Source: an uncultured Bacteroidales bacterium (GTDB taxonomy: Bacteria; Bacteroidota; Bacteroidia; Bacteroidales; UBA11471). Taken from it: 64,000 nt of DNA. Made by a program: the position numbers and the translations under genes. Within the stretch, counting starts at the first letter, position 1, and every line of letters begins with the position of its first letter. The notes beneath the pieces were generated by a model. That model saw nothing but the letters and a program-made list of their open reading frames with translations, was not told where the DNA came from and made no database searches. Of the stretch, positions 2,646 through 54,102 are shown piece after piece. The stretch covers positions 115,471 through 179,470 of the forward strand of contig CANQDQ010000002.1 in assembly GCA_947593515.1 (NCBI GenBank), read 5' to 3'.

Positions 2646-3425
2646 ATGAAAAAACTGATTTCGGATTTGCGTGTAACCGAAAACGTTGCGTTGCACGATC
2701 GTTATGTTTTGTTGAAGGCTGCGCCTGCCGATGGCACGCCGCTGCCCGAAATGCTGCCCGGACAGTTTGCCGAGTTGCGGGTGGACGGTTCGCCGACGAC
2801 TTTTCTGCGGCGTCCCATTTCTATCAACTATGTCGATAGGGCGGCAAACGAAGTTTGGTTTCTCATACAGCTTGTGGGCGACGGCACGCGGCAGTTGGCA
2901 ACGTTGCGGCAGGGCGACACGCTCAATGTCGTTTATCCGCTGGGCAACGGCTTTTCGCTGCCGTCGGGCGATGAACGCCTGCTGCTCGTGGGCGGCGGCG
3001 TGGGAACAGCCCCGCTGCTCTATTTAGGCAGCATGTTGCATGAAAAGGAGTATGCGCCGCATTTCCTTTTGGGCGCGCGCTCGGCGGGCGATGTGCTGCA
3101 AGCGGAAGCGTTCCGACGCTTCGGCACAGTGGATATAACGACCGAAGACGGCAGCGCCGGCGAGCGGGGATATGTAACGCAGCATTCCCTGTTGCAGAAA
3201 GAACATTTCGACCGCATTTACACCTGCGGTCCCAAGCCCATGATGGTGGCGGTAGCGCGATATGCCCGAGCCAACGGCATTGCCTGCGAAGTGTCGCTCG
3301 AAAACACGATGGCGTGCGGCGTGGGCGCCTGTCTGTGCTGCGTGGAAAATACCCGCGACGGACACGTGTGCGTGTGCAAGGAAGGTCCCGTATTCAATAT
3401 AGAAAAATTGTTATGGCAGATTTAA
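2646..3425 (+). CDS. pyrK: Dihydroorotate dehydrogenase (type 1B) electron-transfer subunit PyrK
   Basis: 259 aa. Has the FAD/NAD ferredoxin-reductase fold motifs 'RRPISI' and 'GGGVGTAP'. The C-terminal 2Fe-2S cysteine cluster is 'CGVGACLCC...CVC'. The gene overlaps pyrD. Confidence 0.9.
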
Positions 3426-44895: not shown

Positions 44896-45363
44896 ATGCA
44901 GGAAATCGAAAGAAAGTTTTTGGTGCGGAACGACGGCTACAAAGCCGGCGCATCGCATACCGAATACCGGCAGGGCTACCTATGCGTCGATGCCGACCGT
45001 ACCGTGCGGGTGCGCGCGGCTGCCGGCAAAGGCTATATCACCGTAAAGGGGCGCACGCAAGGGTGTACACGCGCAGAGTATGAATACGAAATACCCATCT
45101 CCGATGCCTGTCAGATGCTCGACACGCTTTGCCGGAAACCGCTGGTCGAAAAGACCCGCTACCGCTGCACCGGCAGCGACGGAAAGGTGTGGGAAATCGA
45201 CGAATTTAAGGGCGTAAACGAAGGGCTCGTCGTTGCCGAAATCGAATTGCAGAGCGAAACCGAACCGTTCGCCCGCCCCGACTGGCTCGGCGACGAAGTG
45301 AGCGGCGACCCGCGCTATTACAATTCCTACCTCTTGGAACACCCTTATAACGAGTGGAAATAA
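44896..45363 (+). CDS. CYTH domain protein (triphosphate tunnel metalloenzyme)
   Basis: 155 aa with the N-terminal 'EIERKFLV' ExExK signature and matching length. Confidence 0.85.
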   Translation: MQEIERKFLVRNDGYKAGASHTEYRQGYLCVDADRTVRVRAAAGKGYITVKGRTQGCTRAEYEYEIPISDACQMLDTLCRKPLVEKTRYRCTGSDGKVWEIDEFKGVNEGLVVAEIELQSETEPFARPDWLGDEVSGDPRYYNSYLLEHPYNEWK

Positions 45364-45471: not shown

Positions 45472-45558
45472 GGAAAGATGCCGGAGTGGTCGATCGGGAC
45501 GGTCTCGAAAACCGTTGTACCCTTTCGGGTACCGAGGGTTCGAATCCCTCTCTTTCCG
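45472..45558 (+). tRNA. tRNA-Ser (anticodon CGA)
   Basis: Manual cloverleaf: acceptor GGAAAGA/TCTTTCC, anticodon stem ACGGT/ACCGT with loop CTCGAAA, long variable arm TGTACCCTTTCGGGTAC, T-arm GAGGG-TTCGAAT-CCCTC. No CCA is encoded. Confidence 0.92.
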
Positions 45559-45563
45559 CAGAA

Positions 45564-45598
45564 ATCGGGTGTAAATTTATGATTTACACCCGATTTTT
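45564..45598. terminator. Strong hairpin terminator after tRNA-Ser, possibly also serving the convergent 157-aa gene
   Basis: 13-bp perfect stem atcgggtgtaaat/atttacacccgat, a 5-nt loop, and a T-tract on the plus strand. It lies 8 nt from the stop of the minus-strand CDS at 45606. Confidence 0.85.
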
Positions 45599-45605
45599 CA
45601 TTTCA

Positions 45606-46079
45606 TTAATCGTCTTCAAACGCTTTATTTTCGATGTGATGTCCGGTAACTTCTTCAAGGAAATCTTCGCGCATCACCATCAGCAGGTTGCGTGTGTATT
45701 CTTGAAGAAGGCCCTTATAATACGTTACGTCCTTGTGGTTCGTTTGGGTGATACGTTCCCATAGCGTTCGTTCCGTAGCCGCTTTATGAGCCTTGTCTAT
45801 CGATTCACGGTCATTGTCTGTCATCAATTTACGCAGCTTTTGTTCCTCCAACACCAACGGAGTACCTTTCAACTTTTTCGGTGCATATTCCCGCCACACC
45901 TCTTCAAGAAATACACGATATTCTGCCTCAATCTTCAGTGGCAGGTCTTTCGTGTACGCTCCTATGGTTTCCGGACGTTCTACCGCCGCCTCTTTCACAA
46001 GGTGCCCAAAATATTTGTTGAGCAGCTCCTGCTCTTTCTCTGTACAGAGCTTTTTTATTTGTTTGCCGAAATTATTCAT
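45606..46079 (-). CDS. Hypothetical all-helical soluble protein, third gene of the low-GC operon
   Basis: 157-aa ORF, highly charged (K/E-rich), with no TM segment and no motif I recognise. It starts 17 nt after the stop of the 743-aa gene. Confidence 0.6.
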   Translation of the reverse strand: MNNFGKQIKKLCTEKEQELLNKYFGHLVKEAAVERPETIGAYTKDLPLKIEAEYRVFLEEVWREYAPKKLKGTPLVLEEQKLRKLMTDNDRESIDKAHKAATERTLWERITQTNHKDVTYYKGLLQEYTRNLLMVMREDFLEEVTGHHIENKAFEDD

Positions 46080-46096
46080 CTTATATCATTCTATCA

Positions 46097-48328
46097 TCAG
46101 ACATTTTTATGTTCTGTCATTTTCAAAATCCATGTAATATAGCGGGAAAATTCTTTATCTAATTTCTGAATATCATCTAATTTTTCATATGGGCGAATGT
46201 CATGATGAATAAAGCGTTCTTTATTCCGTTTAAGAAGATTGCTAAGCTGCTCATTTTTAACAGCATATTTATCTTCATTTCGATGGGCCTTTCGATAACC
46301 CATCAGAAGTTTTTCAACATTCCACCGATTATGCTCGAGACGTGCCATCATATTCACTTCTTCATCTTTGAGCGGTTGAGTGTCATGACTTGTGTCGTCT
46401 TGTTTAAGACCTCGCATAGAGCGTAATGCGGCTAATTTAATTCCTATGGCATAGGCGTTATAAAGATTCGACCATTTAAGTGCCACAGGAAGACTGTTCC
46501 AACATTCATTGGCTTCTGCCCATACCTGCTCCCTCGATATGCTCTCTAATGCCAATAGACTCTGGAATTTGTTGGCAGACGGCATGGTATAATAAAGGTA
46601 ATTAATGAGTTTGGCTCGTTCCAACGACTTCTCATCGGCACTATATGCTGTTTCGTTCATTCCAAAGGGATATATATTGGCATAACGGCCGCCCAATACC
46701 TTCGACTCAATATCTCCGTCTTTTACTGCATAGTAAGTGTTCTTTTTCTTATTCGCACGTATGGCTTCATCGGTTTCCCGCAGATTGCTGACAAAGTTAT
46801 CTGAACGGTCTTGGCGAATGAACACCGGCACCTCATTGTCATACACGGCATCGGGCATATTCATACCCAATACAAAGTTCTCCCGCTGATTGGGCATAGC
46901 CAAGAAAATGGAGAGGTACTGTTGGCGATTATGTTCTTCAGCCCATTTACAAATCATGTCCTGTACCTCTTTCGAGAATACATCGCCTTTAATGAATTCA
47001 AATTCTACGTCAAGGAAGTTGGCGTCGTCATCTGTATAGCCGTTTTCCTTAGTAAAATATAGATATTCGTTCCGCAGGTAGTCTTCTTTCGATTTATAAT
47101 TAGCTCCTTGTGAAAGGTCGCTGTAATAGTACGGCTGCACTTCAAAGAAATGACGATTGCGTATGATAAATTCATCTTTCTCCTTATCCGCATTTTTATC
47201 TATGAATGAAATCAGGGTTTTAACCTTGCTGCCATTTGGGAAATGGAGTACATGGGCTGCTTCCATAGCAAAGGCTACGGCAAAATTAGTCGTACCCACA
47301 AAGGTGAGGTGGACATATCGGGTATCATCTTTTGTCAAAGCCGTCGTGTCGTTTTCGGCATAGCCTTTGCCATACACAGCGGGATAAGGAATTTTTTGTT
47401 CGGGCTGGTTGATGTCGGTATAGAAGAAACGTTTCACAAACACCTGTTTAGCCCAGCCGGCATAGAAATTATATGGTACGAACTCCATTCCCAAATTCTT
47501 TACTCGACCAAAAATTTCGGAAGTCTTAAATGCCGCATAGGTATCAAGATCCTCAAATACGCAAGTGATACGTTTCGGTCGGTCGGTTATCATAGGTTGT
47601 TCCAAATAGGTGCATATACTATCCACACATTCCACATTGATGGCATCGTGTGATGGCAAGGTACGCAACCCCACAATATAAACTTGCTCTGCTGTTTCAA
47701 GGTGAATGTCTTTATAGTAGTCCTTAGAAGTTCTGTGGCCATAGTTGATAATAATGCGGCTCAGCTGTTTTTCATTGAACACTTTTCGCAGTTTTTCTCG
47801 GATATATTCCGAATCTGCCGCACTCATCAGCAGTATAAAGGCTTTCTTTTCTTTTTCGAAAATATGCATAATAATGGAAGGTACCATATCATCGTATCCC
47901 ATAATGATGTAATGACCGGATTTGAGATAGTGGATATGTCCTTTCTTATGGTTGGCTACCCTTCGCTCTATAGAGTTGGTAATGATACCGATGATGATGC
48001 CGTTGAATATAAATATCCCGCACAAAAAAGTTATACTGCTGGCAATCAACATCCAGCCGTGAACGGCAGACCCTTGCTCTGCACTGCCGATATAGAGGTT
48101 ATTCAGTGCATTGGAGTCTATCAACAAATAGATTGGCAACAGCCATTTATTCAGATCTTTATCTTTACAAAATTGTTCCCATTCTACTCCCGACCACCGC
48201 CAAAACATCAGGTATGACAATCCTAATGCGATGATAAGCACGATTCCCAAAAAAAAGAATTGCCTCCATAGGCTCCTCGACAATGAACGGTCGAACAATA
48301 ATTTAATGATAGAACGAGACTTATTCAT
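46097..48328 (-). CDS. Membrane-anchored protein: 2-TM channel-like N-terminus, degenerate Rossmann/RCK-like modules, C-terminal RyR-repeat-like domain
   Basis: 743-aa ORF. TM1 is 'WRQFFFLGIVLIIALGLSYLMFW' and TM2 is 'WMLIASSITFLCGIFIFNGIIIGIITNSI'. Right after TM2 comes 'GHYIIMGYDDMVPSIIMHIF', a beta-alpha start placed like TrkA_N/RCK but without GxGxxG. A second similar segment is 'VHLTFVGTTNFAVAFAMEAA'. The C-terminus 'LEHNRWNVEKLLMGYR...HHDIRPYEKLDDIQKLDKEFSRY' resembles the RyR repeat. Confidence 0.75.
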   Translation of the reverse strand: MNKSRSIIKLLFDRSLSRSLWRQFFFLGIVLIIALGLSYLMFWRWSGVEWEQFCKDKDLNKWLLPIYLLIDSNALNNLYIGSAEQGSAVHGWMLIASSITFLCGIFIFNGIIIGIITNSIERRVANHKKGHIHYLKSGHYIIMGYDDMVPSIIMHIFEKEKKAFILLMSAADSEYIREKLRKVFNEKQLSRIIINYGHRTSKDYYKDIHLETAEQVYIVGLRTLPSHDAINVECVDSICTYLEQPMITDRPKRITCVFEDLDTYAAFKTSEIFGRVKNLGMEFVPYNFYAGWAKQVFVKRFFYTDINQPEQKIPYPAVYGKGYAENDTTALTKDDTRYVHLTFVGTTNFAVAFAMEAAHVLHFPNGSKVKTLISFIDKNADKEKDEFIIRNRHFFEVQPYYYSDLSQGANYKSKEDYLRNEYLYFTKENGYTDDDANFLDVEFEFIKGDVFSKEVQDMICKWAEEHNRQQYLSIFLAMPNQRENFVLGMNMPDAVYDNEVPVFIRQDRSDNFVSNLRETDEAIRANKKKNTYYAVKDGDIESKVLGGRYANIYPFGMNETAYSADEKSLERAKLINYLYYTMPSANKFQSLLALESISREQVWAEANECWNSLPVALKWSNLYNAYAIGIKLAALRSMRGLKQDDTSHDTQPLKDEEVNMMARLEHNRWNVEKLLMGYRKAHRNEDKYAVKNEQLSNLLKRNKERFIHHDIRPYEKLDDIQKLDKEFSRYITWILKMTEHKNV

Positions 48329-48714
48329 TTGCTGCTCTCATTAATGTCTTTCAATGCATTATCTATTTCTTCAAGATATTTGTTCAAGTCTTTACCAAGT
48401 GCCGACAACTTCATATTCCACAAGACCGCTTTCTGTTTTCGCACACATTCTTTTTCGTCCCACTTCTTTTTTCTTTCTTCAGAATAGTGTTTAGAGATGA
48501 CCTCAATCAGTTTTACGAGAATATATCCCGCAACGCAAATTGCTGCAACCATAACGACTGTCCATGTAATTTGTCTCATTATCTCAACGTCAGCCCAGTT
48601 TGTCGCTGCCTCGTTCATACGGCATAGACTATCTTCGGTCGCCTTTGTTAATTTCTCAACCATATTGTCTTTTAGGACAATCGTGTCATTCAGATTTAAA
48701 ATATAGATGCTCAT
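48325..48714 (-). CDS. Small single-pass membrane protein with coiled-coil tail, first gene of the low-GC operon
   Basis: 129 aa with the TM helix 'ITWTVVMVAAICVAGYILVKLI' followed by a K/E-rich helical segment. Its stop overlaps the start of the 743-aa gene (ATGA). Confidence 0.6.
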   Translation of the reverse strand: MSIYILNLNDTIVLKDNMVEKLTKATEDSLCRMNEAATNWADVEIMRQITWTVVMVAAICVAGYILVKLIEVISKHYSEERKKKWDEKECVRKQKAVLWNMKLSALGKDLNKYLEEIDNALKDINESSK

Positions 48715-48763: not shown

Positions 48764-48771
48764 CAAAGATA
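48764..48771 (-). promoter_or_regulatory. -7 motif TATCTTTG (minus strand) upstream of the low-GC operon
   Basis: Plus-strand caaagata, 50 nt upstream of the start at 48714. Confidence 0.5.
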
Positions 48772-48832
48772 GTGAAAAACATATTGTAATAGCAAGTAAT
48801 TTTGACTGTTTTTAAGAAAATGAATAATGCCG

Positions 48833-49645
48833 TCATACTTTTGTCGGGTTCACACCCAAGTGGTGCTGTACGTAGCGGCTGAAATAGGCTGTCGAGGAAA
48901 ATCCGAACATATCGGAAATTTGTACGAGCGAGAGCGTTTTGTCGCGCAGCAGGCGCGATATGTCGAGTATCGTGTAACGGTTTATCCAATAGTTGGCGGC
49001 ATATCCGCTCACCTTTTTTGAAACTTCCGACAGGTATTTGGCGGTTACGCACAAGCTGTCAGCATAGAAAGAGACTTCCCGATGCTCGCGATAGCTCCCC
49101 GCCTCCAACATTCTCAAAAAACGGCTCATGATAGAGGCGTTCTGCGTGGATATGTCGTTTTCGCCATAAAGGCGGGCATGGAAGTCGAAGAAATCGAGAA
49201 TGGCGTTCTGCATGGCGTTTATCAACGTTTCGCGATAGAAGCGGTGATTTGTATCTTGAATGCGCGATGCCAGCATTTTGAAATTGCGCCGACATAGGCT
49301 TTGCTGTTCGGGCGAAAGGTGCATCACGGGATTCAGAAACAGCGCCAGCGAGCCTTTCATGCCGTAGTTGCTCTGCGGCGTACACAGTTCGATGAAGCCG
49401 GGTTTTGCGTAGATGATTTCGGCTTGAAAATCGTCCGATGCCTCTACGTTCTCTACCATTTTCCGTTTGCGGATAATGGAGAGGTCGCCGGCGCGCATTT
49501 CAAATGTTTTTCCATTGAAAGTATAGCGGCACGTACCGCTTACGCAAAACAGATGCGCCAGATATTCGTCTTCAATATCTGTTTCCAGCCGTCGGTTCCA
49601 GTCGGTAACGATGATGTCGCTCGTTGTTTCCATATTTGTTTGCAC
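48833..49645 (-). CDS. AraC family transcriptional regulator
   Basis: 270 aa with an N-terminal cupin-like sensor and a C-terminal double HTH 'SFYADSLCVTAKYLSEVSKK...ISDMFGFSSTAYFSRYVQHHLG'. Confidence 0.85.
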   Translation of the reverse strand: MQTNMETTSDIIVTDWNRRLETDIEDEYLAHLFCVSGTCRYTFNGKTFEMRAGDLSIIRKRKMVENVEASDDFQAEIIYAKPGFIELCTPQSNYGMKGSLALFLNPVMHLSPEQQSLCRRNFKMLASRIQDTNHRFYRETLINAMQNAILDFFDFHARLYGENDISTQNASIMSRFLRMLEAGSYREHREVSFYADSLCVTAKYLSEVSKKVSGYAANYWINRYTILDISRLLRDKTLSLVQISDMFGFSSTAYFSRYVQHHLGVNPTKV

Positions 49646-53737: not shown

Positions 53738-53748
53738 TCTTACGATTG

Positions 53749-53822
53749 TGGTCCCACAAGGGCTTGAACCTTGGACCACCTGATTATGAGTCAGATGCTC
53801 TAACCAACTGAGCTATGGGACC
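53749..53822 (-). tRNA. tRNA with CAT anticodon (Met, or Ile2 if lysidine-modified)
   Basis: The reverse complement is GGTCCCATAGCTCAGTTGGTTAGAGCATCTGACTCATAATCAGGTGGTCCAAGGTTCAAGCCCTTGTGGGACCA. It forms a clean cloverleaf with anticodon loop CTCATAA. Confidence 0.88.
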
Positions 53823-53993
53823 GTTTTTCGACGATTATCGCCCCGTCTTTGGCGCAGGGGCTGTTTCGAAAAAGCGATGCAATATTACGACATTTTTCCG
53901 AACCGACAAAATTATTTTTCCGCTTTTTTGCGCAATCCGATGAAATCGTCTTTTTTCGCAGCACGTACTGCTCTGCCCCACAACGGATTTTAC

Positions 53994-54027
53994 AAAAAAA
54001 CAAGGCGAGCCGCAAATGCTCGCCTTG
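53994..54027 (-). terminator. Rho-independent terminator downstream of tRNA-Cys
   Basis: 10-bp stem caaggcgagc/gctcgccttg followed by a 7-U tract on the minus strand. Confidence 0.85.
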
Positions 54028-54031
54028 TAAG

Positions 54032-54102
54032 AGGTTCCTAGCAGAATCGAACTGCTGTAAACGGTTTTGCAGACCGGCGCCTAACCACTCGACCAAGGAA
54101 CC
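54032..54102 (-). tRNA. tRNA-Cys (anticodon GCA)
   Basis: The reverse complement is GGTTCCTTGGTCGAGTGGTTAGGCGCCGGTCTGCAAAACCGTTTACAGCAGTTCGATTCTGCTAGGAACCT, with anticodon loop CTGCAAA. Confidence 0.9.

What the first reader, a model, noticed from the sequence alone, without database searches (positions are those of the whole stretch)
46097..48328. 743-aa protein combines a 2-TM pore-like N-terminus, degenerate RCK/Rossmann-like modules and a C-terminal RyR-repeat-like domain
What the translation shows:
- Two long hydrophobic helices (about aa 21-44 and 91-118) bracket an amphipathic loop, 'WLLPIYLLIDSNALNNLYIGSAEQGS'.
- Directly after TM2 is a beta-strand/helix start, 'GHYIIMGYDDMVPSIIMHIF'. 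It sits exactly where TrkA_N/RCK domains follow the inner helix in MthK-type channels, but it lacks GxGxxG.
- A second similar unit follows, 'VHLTFVGTTNFAVAFAMEAA'.
- The last ~85 aa (about 46100-46357) read 'LEHNRWNVEKLLMGYR ... HHDIRPYEKLDDIQKLDKEFSRY'.

Established knowledge: as I remember it, the RyR repeat (Pfam PF02026) consensus is E-H-x-x-W ... G-W/Y ... H-P-x-L-x-P-Y/F-x-x-L ... K-x-x-D-R. Stand-alone homologues are known in bacteria and phages with unknown function.

Inference: this is a ligand- or signal-gated membrane-permeabilising effector whose cytoplasmic RyR and Rossmann-like modules act as sensors. I do not recognise this TM plus RyR combination as a described system.
Basis: partly seen in the sequence, partly recalled or inferred. 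Interest (0 to 1): 0.82.

Follow-up and report, generated by a model that had tools for sequence, protein, structure and literature searches.

The report
Bacterial RCK channel with RyR sensor
This unannotated 743-residue membrane protein of a gut or rumen Bacteroidales bacterium looks like an ion channel of the MthK/GsuK/CASTOR type that ends in a divergent ryanodine-receptor (RyR) domain, and its relatives sit next to TIR immune-signalling genes, so it is probably a nucleotide-gated cell-suicide channel and a possible bacterial counterpart of the cADPR-to-RyR link known in animals.

Summary

**Architecture**
- It has two N-terminal transmembrane helices around a conserved P-loop-like segment (LLIDSNALNNLY, not TVGYG).
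- The AlphaFold model matches GsuK, CASTOR, Slo1 and MthK (Foldseek E about 1e-7). This supports two tandem RCK folds.
- Direct Pfam and Foldseek tests of the last ~85 aa fail. However, a diverse family profile hits RyR repeats in the PDB (E 7.6e-8) and a RyR profile (HHalign 97%, E 2.6e-11).
- The H/W/H/D residues that bind cADPR isomers in phage RyDEP are nearly invariant.

**Family and context**
- The family is large (about 1,900 clusters at 50% identity) and unnamed.
- In 80 species-level loci, TIR genes (32) and small canonical RyR genes (37 ORFs) lie within 1 kb. This is 4-35 times denser than further out.
- A 98%-identical homologue has a TIR + nSTAND cassette exactly where the window has none.

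**Reading and limits**
- Best reading: a TIR-signal-gated cation-channel effector. The window copy is an orphan.
- Conduction, the ligand and any defence role are inferred, not shown.
- No description of this family was found. The Thoeris type X "ion channel" appears unrelated.

The parts
46097..48328 (-). Gene for the 743-aa channel-like protein (stop codon 46097-46099)
   Evidence: ORF list. 1,197 homologues, all unnamed or 'hypothetical'. dN/dS is 0.16 against the L007 copy.
48197..48259 (-). TM1 (aa 24-44), preceded by a basic cytoplasmic N-terminus (aa 1-23)
   Evidence: Kyte-Doolittle maximum 2.56; 6 K+R before the helix. AlphaFold helix at 20-45.
48089..48145 (-). P-loop-like segment (aa 62-80, WLLPIYLLIDSNALNNLYI) in place of a pore helix plus filter; contains the invariant D71
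   Evidence: P65, Y67, L68, L69, I70, D71 and Y79 are invariant in A1. D is kept in 52 of 75 diverse representatives, where the motif reads h-h-D-P/S-G/N. The segment aligns to the TLGFGD filter region of GsuK, weakly. pLDDT is low here.
47975..48058 (-). TM2, the putative inner helix (aa 91-118), running into a basic linker (ERRVANHKKGH)
   Evidence: Kyte-Doolittle maximum 2.35. AlphaFold helix at 91-128. Junction matches to Kch and GsuK.
47339..47917 (-). RCK1-like domain (about aa 138-330), starting HYIIMGYDD
   Evidence: Foldseek matches to GsuK, MthK, Slo1 and CASTOR. Pfam Slo-like_RCK hits on the homologous region of distant members. G144 is kept in 140 of 140 representatives.
46661..47317 (-). 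RCK2-like domain (about aa 338-556), starting VHLTFVGTTNF
   Evidence: Alternating strand/helix pattern in the model. Collinear alignment with tandem-RCK chains of GsuK, CASTOR and Slo1.
46409..46636 (-). Helical linker domain (about aa 565-640); not detectably RyR-like
   Evidence: AlphaFold helices with pLDDT 85-96 in the sub-domain model. HHalign against the RyR profile and against the C-terminal profile is not significant.
46118..46363 (-). Divergent RyR domain (aa 656-737) with H666, W669, H708 and D724
   Evidence: HHalign 97.3%, E 2.6e-11 against a RyR profile. Family profile A3 against the PDB: 22 of 24 hits are RyR repeats or bacterial 'putative ryanodine receptor', best E 7.6e-8. H, W, H and D are kept in 139/142, 140/142, 125/129 and 74/83 representatives. 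No direct Pfam hit and no Foldseek hit.
48325..48714 (-). Upstream gene for a 129-aa single-pass membrane protein; its stop overlaps the channel start by 4 nt. Possible accessory subunit.
   Evidence: ORF overlap. Homologues lie directly upstream in L001, L004, L007, L008 and L010 and in BLAST cluster 2 (24 loci). By a hydrophobicity and spacing filter, only 17 of 78 genome loci have such a gene. No family hit.
45606..46079 (-). Downstream gene for a 157-aa protein of unknown function, 17 nt after the channel stop; last gene of the apparent operon
   Evidence: ORF list. 91% identical protein at the end of L007. Recurs in 5 loci as cluster 18. No Pfam, PADLOC, NCBIfam, PHROGs or PDB hit.
48774..48991 (-). 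Upstream segment (the 3' end of the AraC-type gene plus the intergenic region) that contains a Bacteroidetes-type -7 box, TATCTTTG, at 48764-48771 just beyond its lower edge. In the close relative L007 the segment occurs twice, flanking the two-gene module.
   Evidence: blastn of L007 against the window. 218-nt direct repeat in L007 at 42-259 and 2989-3206, 91% identical. Only one copy in the window. Sequence read. The -7 consensus TAnnTTTG is from my own knowledge.
45560..45598 (.). 18-bp-stem hairpin between the 157-aa gene and the convergent tRNA-Ser gene; likely end of the transcription unit
   Evidence: Terminator scan. Sequence read.
45472..45559 (+). tRNA-Ser (CGA) abutting the low-GC segment that carries the operon
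   Evidence: ARAGORN. GC is 0.41 at 46-48 kb, against 0.39-0.56 across the rest of the window (about 0.5 on average).

Best explanation
The gene encodes a subunit of a ligand-gated cation channel, presumably a tetramer, that acts as the membrane-depolarising effector of TIR-based immune signalling.

**Anatomy, from the fold match to RCK channels**
- Each subunit has a cytoplasmic N-terminus, TM1, a re-entrant P-loop-like segment whose invariant Asp71 replaces the K+ filter, and TM2.
- Two RCK folds follow. In GsuK, CASTOR and Slo these would build a cytoplasmic gating ring.
- A helical linker and one divergent RyR domain come last.

**Proposed mechanism (inferred)**
1. On infection, a neighbouring TIR enzyme turns NAD+ into an ADP-ribose-derived nucleotide.
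2. That nucleotide is bound in the RyR-domain pocket formed by H666, W669, H708 and D724. These are the counterparts of the residues that hold 3'cADPR/ADPR in phage RyDEP.
3. The movement passes through the RCK ring to the inner helices and opens the pore.
4. Cation flux collapses the membrane potential and aborts the infection. By analogy with the Asp filter of CASTOR, the flux is possibly non-selective or Ca2+-permeable.

**Accessory genes.** The small canonical RyR proteins encoded next to many family members would either pair with the single channel RyR domain or buffer or degrade the signal.

**The window copy.** In this window the TIR + nSTAND cassette is absent, so the channel with its small membrane partner is an orphan effector. 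It is intact and under purifying selection.

**Shown:** the architecture, the homology, the residue conservation and the gene neighbourhood. **Inferred:** the oligomeric state, conduction, selectivity, the ligand and the defence role.
For: **Fold**
- Foldseek of the 743-aa model (pLDDT 75) gives GsuK, CASTOR, Slo1 and MthK at E 1e-7 to 1e-5, probability 1.0.
- Slo-like_RCK is found above its cut-off in distant members.

**Topology.** Two transmembrane helices with a positive-inside charge bias.

**Filter**
- The P-loop-like segment has the most invariant residues of the N-terminal region.
- Its Asp is kept in 52 of 75 representatives.
- CASTOR lacks TVGYG, has the filter AD265S(A)GNHA, is Ca2+-selective, and the D265N mutant carries no current (PMC6697748).

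**RyR domain**
- HHalign 97.3%, E 2.6e-11.
- The family profile hits PDB RyR repeats, best E 7.6e-8.
- Pfam RyR is found at the same C-terminal site in 10 of 10 distant members.
- The family member P0137 reads EHNRWNVEKLLLGY...HPDITPYEKLSEGSKEYDR, which bridges the window motif to the canonical one.

**Ligand pocket**
- RyDEP residues H75, W78, H100 and D117 bind the 3'cADPR/ADPR ligand and are conserved in RyR R12 (PMC13232231).
- Their 3/25/17 spacing equals that of the canonical RyR98 neighbour, by my count on the sequence.
- The window has 3/42/16, and these residues are the most conserved in the family.

**Context**
- TIR genes lie within 1 kb on the same strand in 32 of 80 species-level loci, and within 10 kb in 44 of 80.
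- A canonical RyR gene lies immediately downstream in 25 of 80 loci.
- Density falls 4- to 35-fold beyond 1 kb.
- About 20 loci carry the cassette channel, RyR98, TIR (ThsB_TIR) and TPR.
- Neighbouring TIRs keep the conserved Glu (taken here as the catalytic Glu) in 82 of 86 cases.
- The distant member P0137 also sits between a TIR-FGE-sulfatase gene and two RyR genes.
- The 98%-identical homologue has TIR + nSTAND1 inserted precisely between the channel gene and the 157-aa gene.

**Precedent.** Thoeris systems with membrane or 'ion channel' effectors exist, namely types II, V and X (10.64898/2025.12.03.692087).
Against: - The window has no TIR, nSTAND or canonical RyR gene anywhere in its 64 kb. 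Its flanks are ordinary genes: AraC-type, DUF362, SusD-like, CYTH and RmlD.
- Only 40% of loci have an adjacent TIR, and 26 of 80 have neither TIR nor RyR within 10 kb. Defence islands also place unrelated systems side by side.
- There is no PADLOC hit.
- The transmembrane region of the model has low confidence (pLDDT 43-64), and no multimer model could be made.
- The window protein itself has no Pfam RyR hit even at E<=10.
- The modelled C-terminal domain (pLDDT 83, but 56-74 across much of the RyR-like part) finds no RyR structure in the PDB or BFVD.
- Only one RyR repeat is present, whereas known RyR modules work as pairs.
- The RyDEP ligand data are for phage proteins and come from a preprint.
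- Many adjacent TIRs are fused to SIR2-like or STAND-associated architectures, in which TIR may simply be an NADase effector.
Confidence: 0.45

Rival explanations
1. It is a physiological, non-immune ligand-gated cation channel. It would be an RCK channel of Bacteroidales whose RyR domain and RCK ring sense ordinary adenine nucleotides (ATP, ADP, NAD+) or Ca2+ to adjust ion homeostasis. On this reading the defence-gene neighbours are incidental.
For: - The window copy stands alone among ordinary genes, yet is intact and under purifying selection.
- GsuK structures exist with NAD and with ADP bound (entry titles 4gx2 and 4gx1).
- The RyR3 R12 domain binds adenine-containing ligands (PMC13232231).
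- 26 of 80 loci have neither TIR nor RyR genes within 10 kb.
Against: - The gene sits on a low-GC segment next to a tRNA gene.
- Its neighbourhood varies from strain to strain.
- TIR and RyR genes are concentrated within 1 kb rather than spread across the flanks.
- One MAG carries several paralogues (L022, L085, L086). This is more typical of conflict genes than of housekeeping channels.
Confidence: 0.2
2. It is a defence-island effector that is not gated by a TIR-made second messenger. It could open on NAD+ depletion or ADPR accumulation caused by TIR or SIR2 NADases. Alternatively it could be controlled by protein partners: the small RyR proteins, the 129-aa membrane protein, or the STAND/TPR sensors. 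It could also be an independent abortive-infection module.
For: - Adjacent TIRs are often fused to SIR2-like domains or paired with nSTAND1, TPR or WD40 proteins. In such architectures TIR can itself be the effector.
- The two-gene module (small TM protein plus channel) is flanked by a 218-nt direct repeat in L007, and it occurs without TIR in the window.
- Some loci carry a RyR-domain protein paired with a 185-aa protein instead of a TIR next to the channel, for example L008.
Against: - TIR partners of many different architectures (clusters 4, 8, 13, 16, 21) lie next to the channel. This fits a shared small-molecule link better than specific protein contacts.
- The best-conserved residues of the whole family are the ones that contact the nucleotide in RyDEP.
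Confidence: 0.2
3. It is not a pore. The two helices would only anchor a cytoplasmic RCK-RyR module to the membrane, where it sequesters or cleaves ADPR-type signals as RyDEP does. It would then be an immune off-switch or threshold setter rather than an effector.
For: - The His and Asp of the RyDEP catalytic dyad (H75, D117) have conserved counterparts here, H666 and D724.
- The pore region is modelled with low confidence and has no known selectivity-filter sequence.
Against: - Whole-chain collinearity with GsuK includes the membrane part.
- The loop between the helices carries the most invariant residues of the N-terminal region. That is unexpected for a mere anchor.
- Canonical small RyR proteins that could do the buffering job are encoded separately next door.
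Confidence: 0.1

Closest known systems
GsuK (Geobacter sulfurreducens; PDB 4GX0, 4GX1, 4GX2, 4GX5) and MthK: prokaryotic 2-TM channels gated by RCK rings
   Same: Same order of parts: TM1, pore loop, TM2, then RCK directly after the inner helix, with two RCK folds per chain as in GsuK. These are the best structural matches (E about 1e-7). GsuK has been solved with ADP and with NAD bound (entry titles).
   Different: About 12% identity and no significant sequence match (E 1.4). The TVGYG/TLGFGD filter is replaced by IDSNALNN. There is an extra ~180-aa C-terminal helical linker plus RyR domain. The gene context is a conflict island, not housekeeping.
CASTOR / POLLUX / DMI1 plant nuclear channels (gating ring PDB 6O7A, 6O7C, 7VM8)
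   Same: These are tandem-RCK gating-ring channels that lack TVGYG and have an Asp-containing filter, AD(S/A)GNHA. CASTOR is Ca2+-selective and D265 is essential (PMC6697748). The window has I-D71-S-N-A and the wider family has h-D-P/S-G/N. The gating ring is among the top Foldseek hits.
   Different: Four transmembrane segments in the plant proteins against two here. They are Ca2+-gated and have no RyR domain. The filter resemblance is a short motif only and was not tested.
RyR domain (Pfam PF02026): phage RyDEP, bacterial 'putative ryanodine receptor' proteins (PDB 3NRT, 4N05, 6UAG) and the R12 repeats of animal RyR1-3
   Same: Profile-level homology of aa 656-737. The H, W, H and D ligand-contact residues are conserved. 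Canonical ~98-aa RyR proteins, which match RyR1/2 R12 at E about 1e-62, are encoded next to many family members.
   Different: Below the Pfam threshold: no hit for the window protein and 12.7-24 bits against a cut-off of 27.4 for relatives. There is a 17-residue insertion and a 1-residue deletion between the motif residues. Only one repeat is present. The domain is fused to a channel. No structural match was found for the model.
Thoeris TIR-signalling defence systems with membrane effectors: type II (Macro-TM), type V (ThsF/DUF2270) and type X (TIR + 'ion channel' ThsK)
   Same: The logic is a TIR gene next to a membrane or ion-channel protein that carries or forms a nucleotide pocket. For type X the signal is still unknown (10.64898/2025.12.03.692087).
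   Different: - The protein next to type-X-like TIRs in Bacillus is a 222-246-aa multi-TM protein with no similarity to this family (negative bit scores). My identification of it as ThsK rests on adjacency only.
- The TIRs here belong to other sub-families and are often fused to, or paired with, TM, TPR, WD40, SIR2-like or nSTAND parts.
- There are extra RyR genes.
- There are no PADLOC hits.
- The window copy has no TIR.
Animal ryanodine receptors (Ca2+ release channels modulated by adenine nucleotides and, controversially, cADPR)
   Same: A cation channel that carries RyR domains in its cytoplasmic part. cADPR-type nucleotides are proposed as modulators (discussion).
   Different: The pore and gating machinery are unrelated: a six-TM RyR/IP3R pore against a 2-TM RCK channel. 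This is a convergent or domain-shuffling relationship, not orthology.

Membership tests
RCK-gated 2-TM tetrameric cation channels (MthK / GsuK / CASTOR / Slo type) | Two transmembrane helices bracketing a re-entrant pore loop | tested here: inconclusive
   The two helices are clear. The conserved loop has short helices at 64-70 and 72-80, but pLDDT is 43-64 and no multimer model was available.
RCK-gated 2-TM tetrameric cation channels (MthK / GsuK / CASTOR / Slo type) | K+ selectivity filter T-V/I-G-Y/F-G | tested here: not met
   The sequence at that place is LLIDSNALNNLY. Relatives read h-h-D-P-G-x. As with CASTOR, which also lacks TVGYG, this argues against K+ selectivity but not against a channel.
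RCK-gated 2-TM tetrameric cation channels (MthK / GsuK / CASTOR / Slo type) | RCK fold immediately after the inner helix, and a second RCK fold in the same chain | tested here: met
   Foldseek matches to GsuK, CASTOR, Slo1 and MthK at probability 1.0. Pfam Slo-like_RCK is above its cut-off in homologues. The window protein itself has no Pfam RCK hit.
RCK-gated 2-TM tetrameric cation channels (MthK / GsuK / CASTOR / Slo type) | Tetramer with a gating ring; ligand-dependent ion conduction | not testable with these tools
   This needs a multimer prediction or cryo-EM, and flux or patch-clamp assays.
RyR domain (Pfam PF02026) | Score above the Pfam gathering threshold (27.4 bits) | tested here: not met
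   No hit at E<=10 for the window protein or any of 33 close relatives. 10 of 10 distant members hit at 12.7-24 bits at the homologous site.
RyR domain (Pfam PF02026) | Profile-level homology to bona fide RyR domains | tested here: met
   HHalign probability 97.3%, E 2.6e-11, window aa 656-737 against RyR positions 24-90. Family profile A3 against the PDB: 22 of 24 hits are RyR repeats or bacterial RyR proteins; 6uhi at E 7.6e-8 and 3nrt at E 1.5e-3. A shallow-profile HHalign had failed (E 0.14).
RyR domain (Pfam PF02026) | Ligand-contact residues His, Trp (HxxW), His and Asp (RyDEP H75, W78, H100, D117) | tested here: met
   H666, W669, H708 and D724 are invariant in A1. They are kept in 139/142, 140/142, 125/129 and 74/83 diverse representatives. 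The residue roles come from PMC13232231.
RyR domain (Pfam PF02026) | RyR-repeat fold, acting as a tandem pair or dimer | tested here: inconclusive
   The C-terminal model finds no RyR structure in the PDB or BFVD, but pLDDT is 56-74 over much of the relevant stretch. No second repeat is detectable. Dimerisation could not be tested.
Thoeris-type TIR signalling system (TIR producer plus signal-activated effector) | TIR gene in the same operon or adjacent | tested here: not met
   - Window: there is no TIR in 64 kb.
- Relatives: the feature is met. TIR lies within 1 kb on the same strand in 32 of 80 loci, and directly after the gene in the 98%-identical homologue.
Thoeris-type TIR signalling system (TIR producer plus signal-activated effector) | TIR with the catalytic glutamate | tested here: met
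   Glu is present at the S-x-W-x-x-x-E position in 82 of 86 TIR ORFs of the related loci. This does not apply to the window itself.
Thoeris-type TIR signalling system (TIR producer plus signal-activated effector) | Effector activated by the TIR product; protection against phage | not testable with these tools
   No PADLOC model matches. This needs binding, toxicity and plaque assays.
Thoeris type X effector ThsK ('ion channel') | Sequence similarity to the protein encoded next to type X TIRs | tested here: not met
   The family HMM against the 222- and 246-aa Bacillus proteins gives -3.6 and -3.8 bits. The proteins were identified by adjacency to TIRs that are 68-89% identical to the published B. 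cereus Q1 type X TIR.

The most novel reading that the evidence does not exclude
A large family, so far unnamed in the sources searched, of bacterial RCK-ring cation channels uses a built-in RyR domain to read TIR-made cyclic ADP-ribose-type nucleotides. The channels may be Ca2+-permeable, because their filter is Asp-based as in CASTOR. This would be a prokaryotic 'cADPR opens a RyR-domain channel' pathway. The host-encoded small RyR proteins would act as co-receptor or signal-clearing subunits. It would be an experimentally tractable model for the disputed question of how cADPR acts on animal ryanodine receptors, and a new Thoeris effector class.
Probability: 0.3. Interest if true: 0.9.

Novelty: new variant of a known kind. 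Interest (0 to 1): 0.78.

Why it matters
**An unnamed family.** It has about 1,900 clusters at 50% identity, and the 33 close relatives tested have no Pfam hit. Every source name seen is 'hypothetical protein'. This work gives it an architecture and a testable function.

**Three fields joined.**
- RCK-gated channels.
- TIR/NAD+-derived immune signalling.
- The RyR domain, whose ability to bind nucleotide signals was first reported in a May 2026 preprint, and only for phage proteins.

**If the mechanism holds.**
- It would add a channel effector with a new sensor domain to Thoeris-like immunity.
- It would suggest a role for host-encoded RyR proteins.
- It would show that RyR domains were linked to ion channels and cADPR-type ligands in bacteria. 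That bears on the long-standing question of whether cADPR acts directly on ryanodine receptors.

**A natural experiment.** The presence/absence polymorphism of the TIR + nSTAND cassette between 98%-identical loci shows how effectors and sensors are shuffled.

Tried and rejected
1. **Direct family searches.** Pfam, NCBIfam, PADLOC and PHROGs give nothing significant for the protein.
2. **GIY-YIG.** A weak hit at aa 116-163 recurs in 17 of 33 members (best E 9e-4, below the cut-off). I reject it because it spans the end of TM2 and the first RCK strand, and no nuclease fold appears in the model.
3. **PDB searches.** A single-sequence search and the close-relative profile A1 find only GsuK at E 1.4.
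4. **Shallow HHalign.** The C-terminal alignment A2 against closely related RyR proteins gives E 0.14, aligned in the expected register but not significant. It became significant only with diverse profiles.
5. **Foldseek of a separate C-terminal model.** No RyR match in the PDB or in viral structures. I treat this as inconclusive because of low local confidence.
6. **A second, degenerate RyR repeat in aa 556-650.** Not supported.
7. **Identity with the Thoeris type X 'ion channel'.** Rejected on sequence. Two plasmid tblastn searches found only type II (TIR + Macro) loci.
8. **The 185-aa neighbour as an ECF sigma factor, with the 310-aa RyR protein as its anti-sigma.** This was my reading of the sequence. 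Only a weak DUF1492 hit backs it, so I make no such claim.
9. **The small upstream membrane protein as an obligatory subunit.** Rejected as a general rule, since it is present in only 17 of 78 loci.
10. **Literature.** Searches for RCK + RyR, RCK + anti-phage, and RyR + nSTAND/PrsW found no description of this family.

Full report
**The observation**

- Only two segments are strongly hydrophobic: 19-mer Kyte-Doolittle means of 2.56 around aa 28-36 and 2.35 around aa 97-112. Nothing after residue 135 exceeds 1.25.
- The N-terminus and the stretch after TM2 are basic, and the loop between the helices is acidic. The predicted topology is therefore N-in/C-in, with the ~620-aa remainder in the cytoplasm.
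- The protein is not a chance ORF.
  - It has 1,197 homologues at E<=1e-3, all unnamed or 'hypothetical' and without Pfam domains, from Prevotella and other Bacteroidales.
  - An exhaustive profile search finds 1,923 clusters at 50% identity, 511 of them at E<=1e-30.
  - Against a 98%-identical copy, dN/dS is 0.16.

**Channel-like body**

Direct searches of Pfam, NCBIfam, PADLOC and PHROGs give nothing significant. The only faint signals fall on the junction between the inner helix and the RCK domain of Kch (NF007828, E 0.089), and on the stretch from pore helix through filter and inner helix to the RCK start of GsuK (4gx5, E 1.4).

The structural evidence is stronger.
- An AlphaFold2 model built on 33 sequences (mean pLDDT 75, pTM 0.62) has the alternating strand/helix pattern of two Rossmann-like domains after TM2.
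- Foldseek returns GsuK (E 1e-7, probability 1.0, 551-564 aligned columns, essentially the whole chain). The LjCASTOR and MtDMI1 gating rings, many Slo1 structures and MthK follow.
- Distant family members hit Pfam Slo-like_RCK (PF22614) at the homologous place, several above the cut-off of 24 bits (29.2 and 25.6; 27.3, 26.1 and 24.3).

As I recall, a missing GxGxxG is usual for MthK/Slo-type RCK domains.

The weak point is the membrane part. pLDDT is 43-64 there, and I could not model a tetramer.

**The pore loop**
- The loop between the helices carries the most invariant residues of the N-terminal region: P65, Y67, L68, L69, I70, D71 and Y79.
- It does not contain TVGYG. It reads LLIDSNALNNLY, and in diverse relatives h-h-D-P/S-G/N-x. 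The Asp is kept in 52 of 75 representatives that align there.
- The closest precedent is CASTOR/DMI1. These are RCK-ring channels without TVGYG, with the predicted filter AD265S(A)GNHA. CASTOR is highly Ca2+-selective and the D265N mutant carries no current (PMC6697748).
- This is a lead about selectivity, not a test.

**The RyR-like end**

Three direct tests fail.
- Pfam RyR gives no hit even at E<=10 for the window protein or for 33 close relatives.
- A shallow profile-profile comparison gives E 0.14.
- A separate model of aa 562-743 (pLDDT 83, but 56-74 over much of the RyR-like stretch) finds no RyR structure in the PDB or BFVD.

With diverse sequences the picture changes.
1. A RyR HMM built from neighbour-encoded RyR proteins hits 23 of 150 family representatives, always at the extreme C-terminus.
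2. Pfam's own RyR model is a sub-threshold hit at that site in 10 of 10 such members (12.7-24 bits, E 5e-5 to 0.15).
3. Member P0137 reads EHNRWNVEKLLLGY...HPDITPYEKLSEGSKEYDR. That joins the window's motif to the canonical RyR motif in one protein.
4. HHalign of a 131-sequence C-terminal profile (window sequence as master) against a 71-sequence RyR profile gives probability 97.3% and E 2.6e-11, for window aa 656-737 against RyR positions 24-90.
5. A 25-sequence profile of the family C-terminus (A3) was searched against all PDB sequences. Of its 24 hits, 22 are ryanodine-receptor repeats or bacterial 'putative ryanodine receptor' proteins (6uhi E 7.6e-8, 6j6p E 8e-4, 3nrt E 1.5e-3).

The domain is therefore a divergent RyR domain with a ~17-residue insertion. 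The preceding helical region (aa 556-650) is not a second repeat.

**Why the RyR domain matters**
- A May 2026 preprint shows that phage RyR-domain proteins (RyDEP, PF02026) bind and either cleave or sequester 2'cADPR and 3'cADPR, the signals made by Thoeris TIR enzymes.
- It names H75, W78, H100 and D117 as the ligand contacts. These are conserved in the R12 domain of animal RyRs (PMC13232231).
- Their spacing (3, 25, 17) is exactly that of the canonical 98-aa RyR proteins found next to family members, by my count on the sequence.
- In the window protein the counterparts are H666, W669, H708 and D724, with spacing 3, 42, 16.
- They are invariant among close relatives. Together with E665 and G144 they are the most conserved positions across 150 diverse representatives: 139/142, 140/142, 125/129 and 74/83.
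- The conserved core of the family is thus a putative nucleotide pocket.

**Genomic context elsewhere**

*Six metagenomic contexts of close relatives.*
- The gene lies among TIR, nSTAND1, SIR2-like, PrsW, CARF-Card1 and BrxL genes.
- It is often followed by proteins with canonical RyR domains.

*Eighty species-level genome loci of rumen and gut Bacteroidales.*
- I called ORFs, clustered the neighbours and annotated the recurrent clusters.
  - Cluster 1 is a 98-aa RyR protein (PF02026, 120 bits).
  - Cluster 4 is a 376-aa TIR/ThsB_TIR protein with a hydrophobic segment.
  - Cluster 3 is a 680-aa TPR protein.
- About 20 loci carry the cassette channel, RyR98, TIR, TPR.
- A TIR ORF lies within 10 kb in 44 loci, and within 1 kb on the same strand in 32.
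- A canonical RyR ORF lies within 10 kb in 44 loci, and immediately downstream in 25. 54 loci have one or the other.
- TIR density is 2.13 per 10 kb within 1 kb of the gene, against 0.25-0.49 further out. RyR density is 2.46 against 0.07-0.22. The link is therefore to the gene itself, not just to the island.
- The neighbouring TIRs keep the conserved Glu, taken here as the catalytic residue, in 82 of 86 cases.

*A distant family member.* P0137 sits between a TIR-FGE-sulfatase gene and two RyR genes.

**Context in the window**
- The gene is the middle of an apparent three-gene unit.
  - A 129-aa single-pass membrane protein comes first; its stop overlaps the channel start.
  - The channel gene is second.
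  - A 157-aa protein of unknown function follows 17 nt later.
  - A Bacteroidetes-type TATCTTTG box lies upstream.
  - An 18-bp-stem hairpin lies before the convergent tRNA-Ser.
- GC is 0.41 here, against 0.39-0.56 across the rest of the window (about 0.5 on average).
- No TIR, nSTAND or canonical RyR gene exists anywhere in the 64 kb.
- Locus L007, with a 98%-identical protein, is collinear with window 49032-46099. It then carries 5.7 kb with a TIR_2 protein (509 aa) and an nSTAND1 protein (1,214 aa). It resumes at window 46039.
- The window therefore holds an orphan copy of the effector, relative to a strain that has the TIR + nSTAND cassette.
- The small membrane protein recurs (24 loci by BLAST clustering), but it is not universal (17 of 78 by a structural filter).

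**Mechanism**

The best-supported reading is a ligand-gated cation channel that serves as an effector of TIR signalling.
1. A TIR product binds the RyR pocket.
2. The RCK ring transmits the change.
3. The pore opens.
4. The membrane potential collapses.

What is shown is the architecture, the homology, the residue conservation and the neighbourhood. What is inferred is the oligomeric state, conduction, selectivity, the identity of the ligand and any defence phenotype.

The rivals are a physiological nucleotide- or Ca2+-gated channel; a defence effector controlled by NAD+/ADPR levels or by protein partners rather than by a second messenger; and a membrane-anchored signal sponge or glycosidase without a pore.

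**Comparison with what is known**
- It works like GsuK, MthK and CASTOR at the level of fold, but it fails the K+ filter test.
- It contains a RyR domain by profile criteria, but it fails the Pfam threshold.
- It resembles Thoeris systems in logic. A recent survey lists 29 putative Thoeris types, including type X, which pairs a TIR with an 'ion channel' effector and has an unknown signal (10.64898/2025.12.03.692087).
- I located type-X-like loci in Bacillus. The protein next to the TIR is a 222-246-aa multi-TM protein with no similarity to this family. Its identification as ThsK rests on adjacency only.
- Literature searches for RCK + RyR, RCK + anti-phage, and RyR + nSTAND/PrsW found nothing.
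- I therefore rate it a new variant of a known kind. The probability is about 0.3 that it is a genuine bacterial 'cADPR-type ligand opens a RyR-domain channel' pathway.

Noticed in passing
L007 42-259 and 2989-3206; window 48774-48991: In the 98%-identical relative, a 218-nt direct repeat (91% identical) flanks the two-gene module of small membrane protein plus channel. The second copy sits just upstream of the TIR gene. The window has only the upstream copy. The segment covers the 3' end of the AraC-type gene and ends just before a TATCTTTG box. It may be a duplicated promoter region or a trace of cassette insertion.
   Followed up: partly
window 46039-46099 versus L007 2974-8691: A presence/absence polymorphism of a 5.7-kb TIR_2 (509 aa) + nSTAND1 (1,214 aa) cassette between two otherwise ~97% identical loci. 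The breakpoints lie within 60 nt after the channel stop codon.
   Followed up: partly
window 45606-46079 (-): A 157-aa protein with no hit in Pfam, NCBIfam, PADLOC, PHROGs or the PDB. It recurs near family members in 5 loci (BLAST cluster 18: window, L007, L010, L011, L022), at varying positions.
   Followed up: partly
L001 8201-9677; L004 8229-9753; L008 10229-11696: A recurrent gene pair directly after the channel in about 12 loci: a 185-aa protein, and a 310-334-aa protein that ends in a canonical RyR domain (102 bits). From the sequence the pair looked to me like a sigma/anti-sigma pair, but only a weak DUF1492 hit supports that.
   Followed up: partly
P0227, P0251 (family representatives); L100 1119-2504: Some distant family members of 1,300-1,350 aa carry a C-terminal FGE-sulfatase domain (E 1e-40 to 1e-50). 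A TIR-FGE-sulfatase fusion protein lies next to another member. FGE-sulfatase may be a shared sensor module.
   Followed up: no
P0171 (578 aa): One representative joins an N-terminal integrase Arm-DNA-binding domain and a SAM-like domain to the C-terminal two-thirds of the family protein. This is probably a gene disrupted by an integrase, or a gene-calling chimera.
   Followed up: no
L022, L085, L086 (MAG RGIG7573); L041 and L059 (RGIG9735); L055 and L057 (RGIG8246): Single genomes carry two or three paralogues of the family on different contigs.
   Followed up: no
L087 12094-12390 and other cluster-1 ORFs: The 98-aa bacterial RyR proteins next to the channel match the R12 repeats of mammalian RyR1/RyR2 at E about 1e-62. 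That is far closer than the channel's own RyR domain.
   Followed up: partly
L058 12476-13606 (cluster 4, 19 loci): The TIR protein of the recurrent four-gene cassette has an N-terminal TIR/ThsB_TIR domain, a hydrophobic helix and a ~170-aa C-terminal region with no annotation. This suggests a membrane-anchored TIR.
   Followed up: no
window 44896-45363 (+) and 45472-45559 (+): A CYTH-domain protein (E 4.5e-15) lies just upstream of tRNA-Ser(CGA), at the edge of the low-GC segment. The low-GC stretch (0.41-0.46) runs from about 46 kb to 54 kb and ends near tRNA-Met and tRNA-Cys (53748-54102).
   Followed up: no
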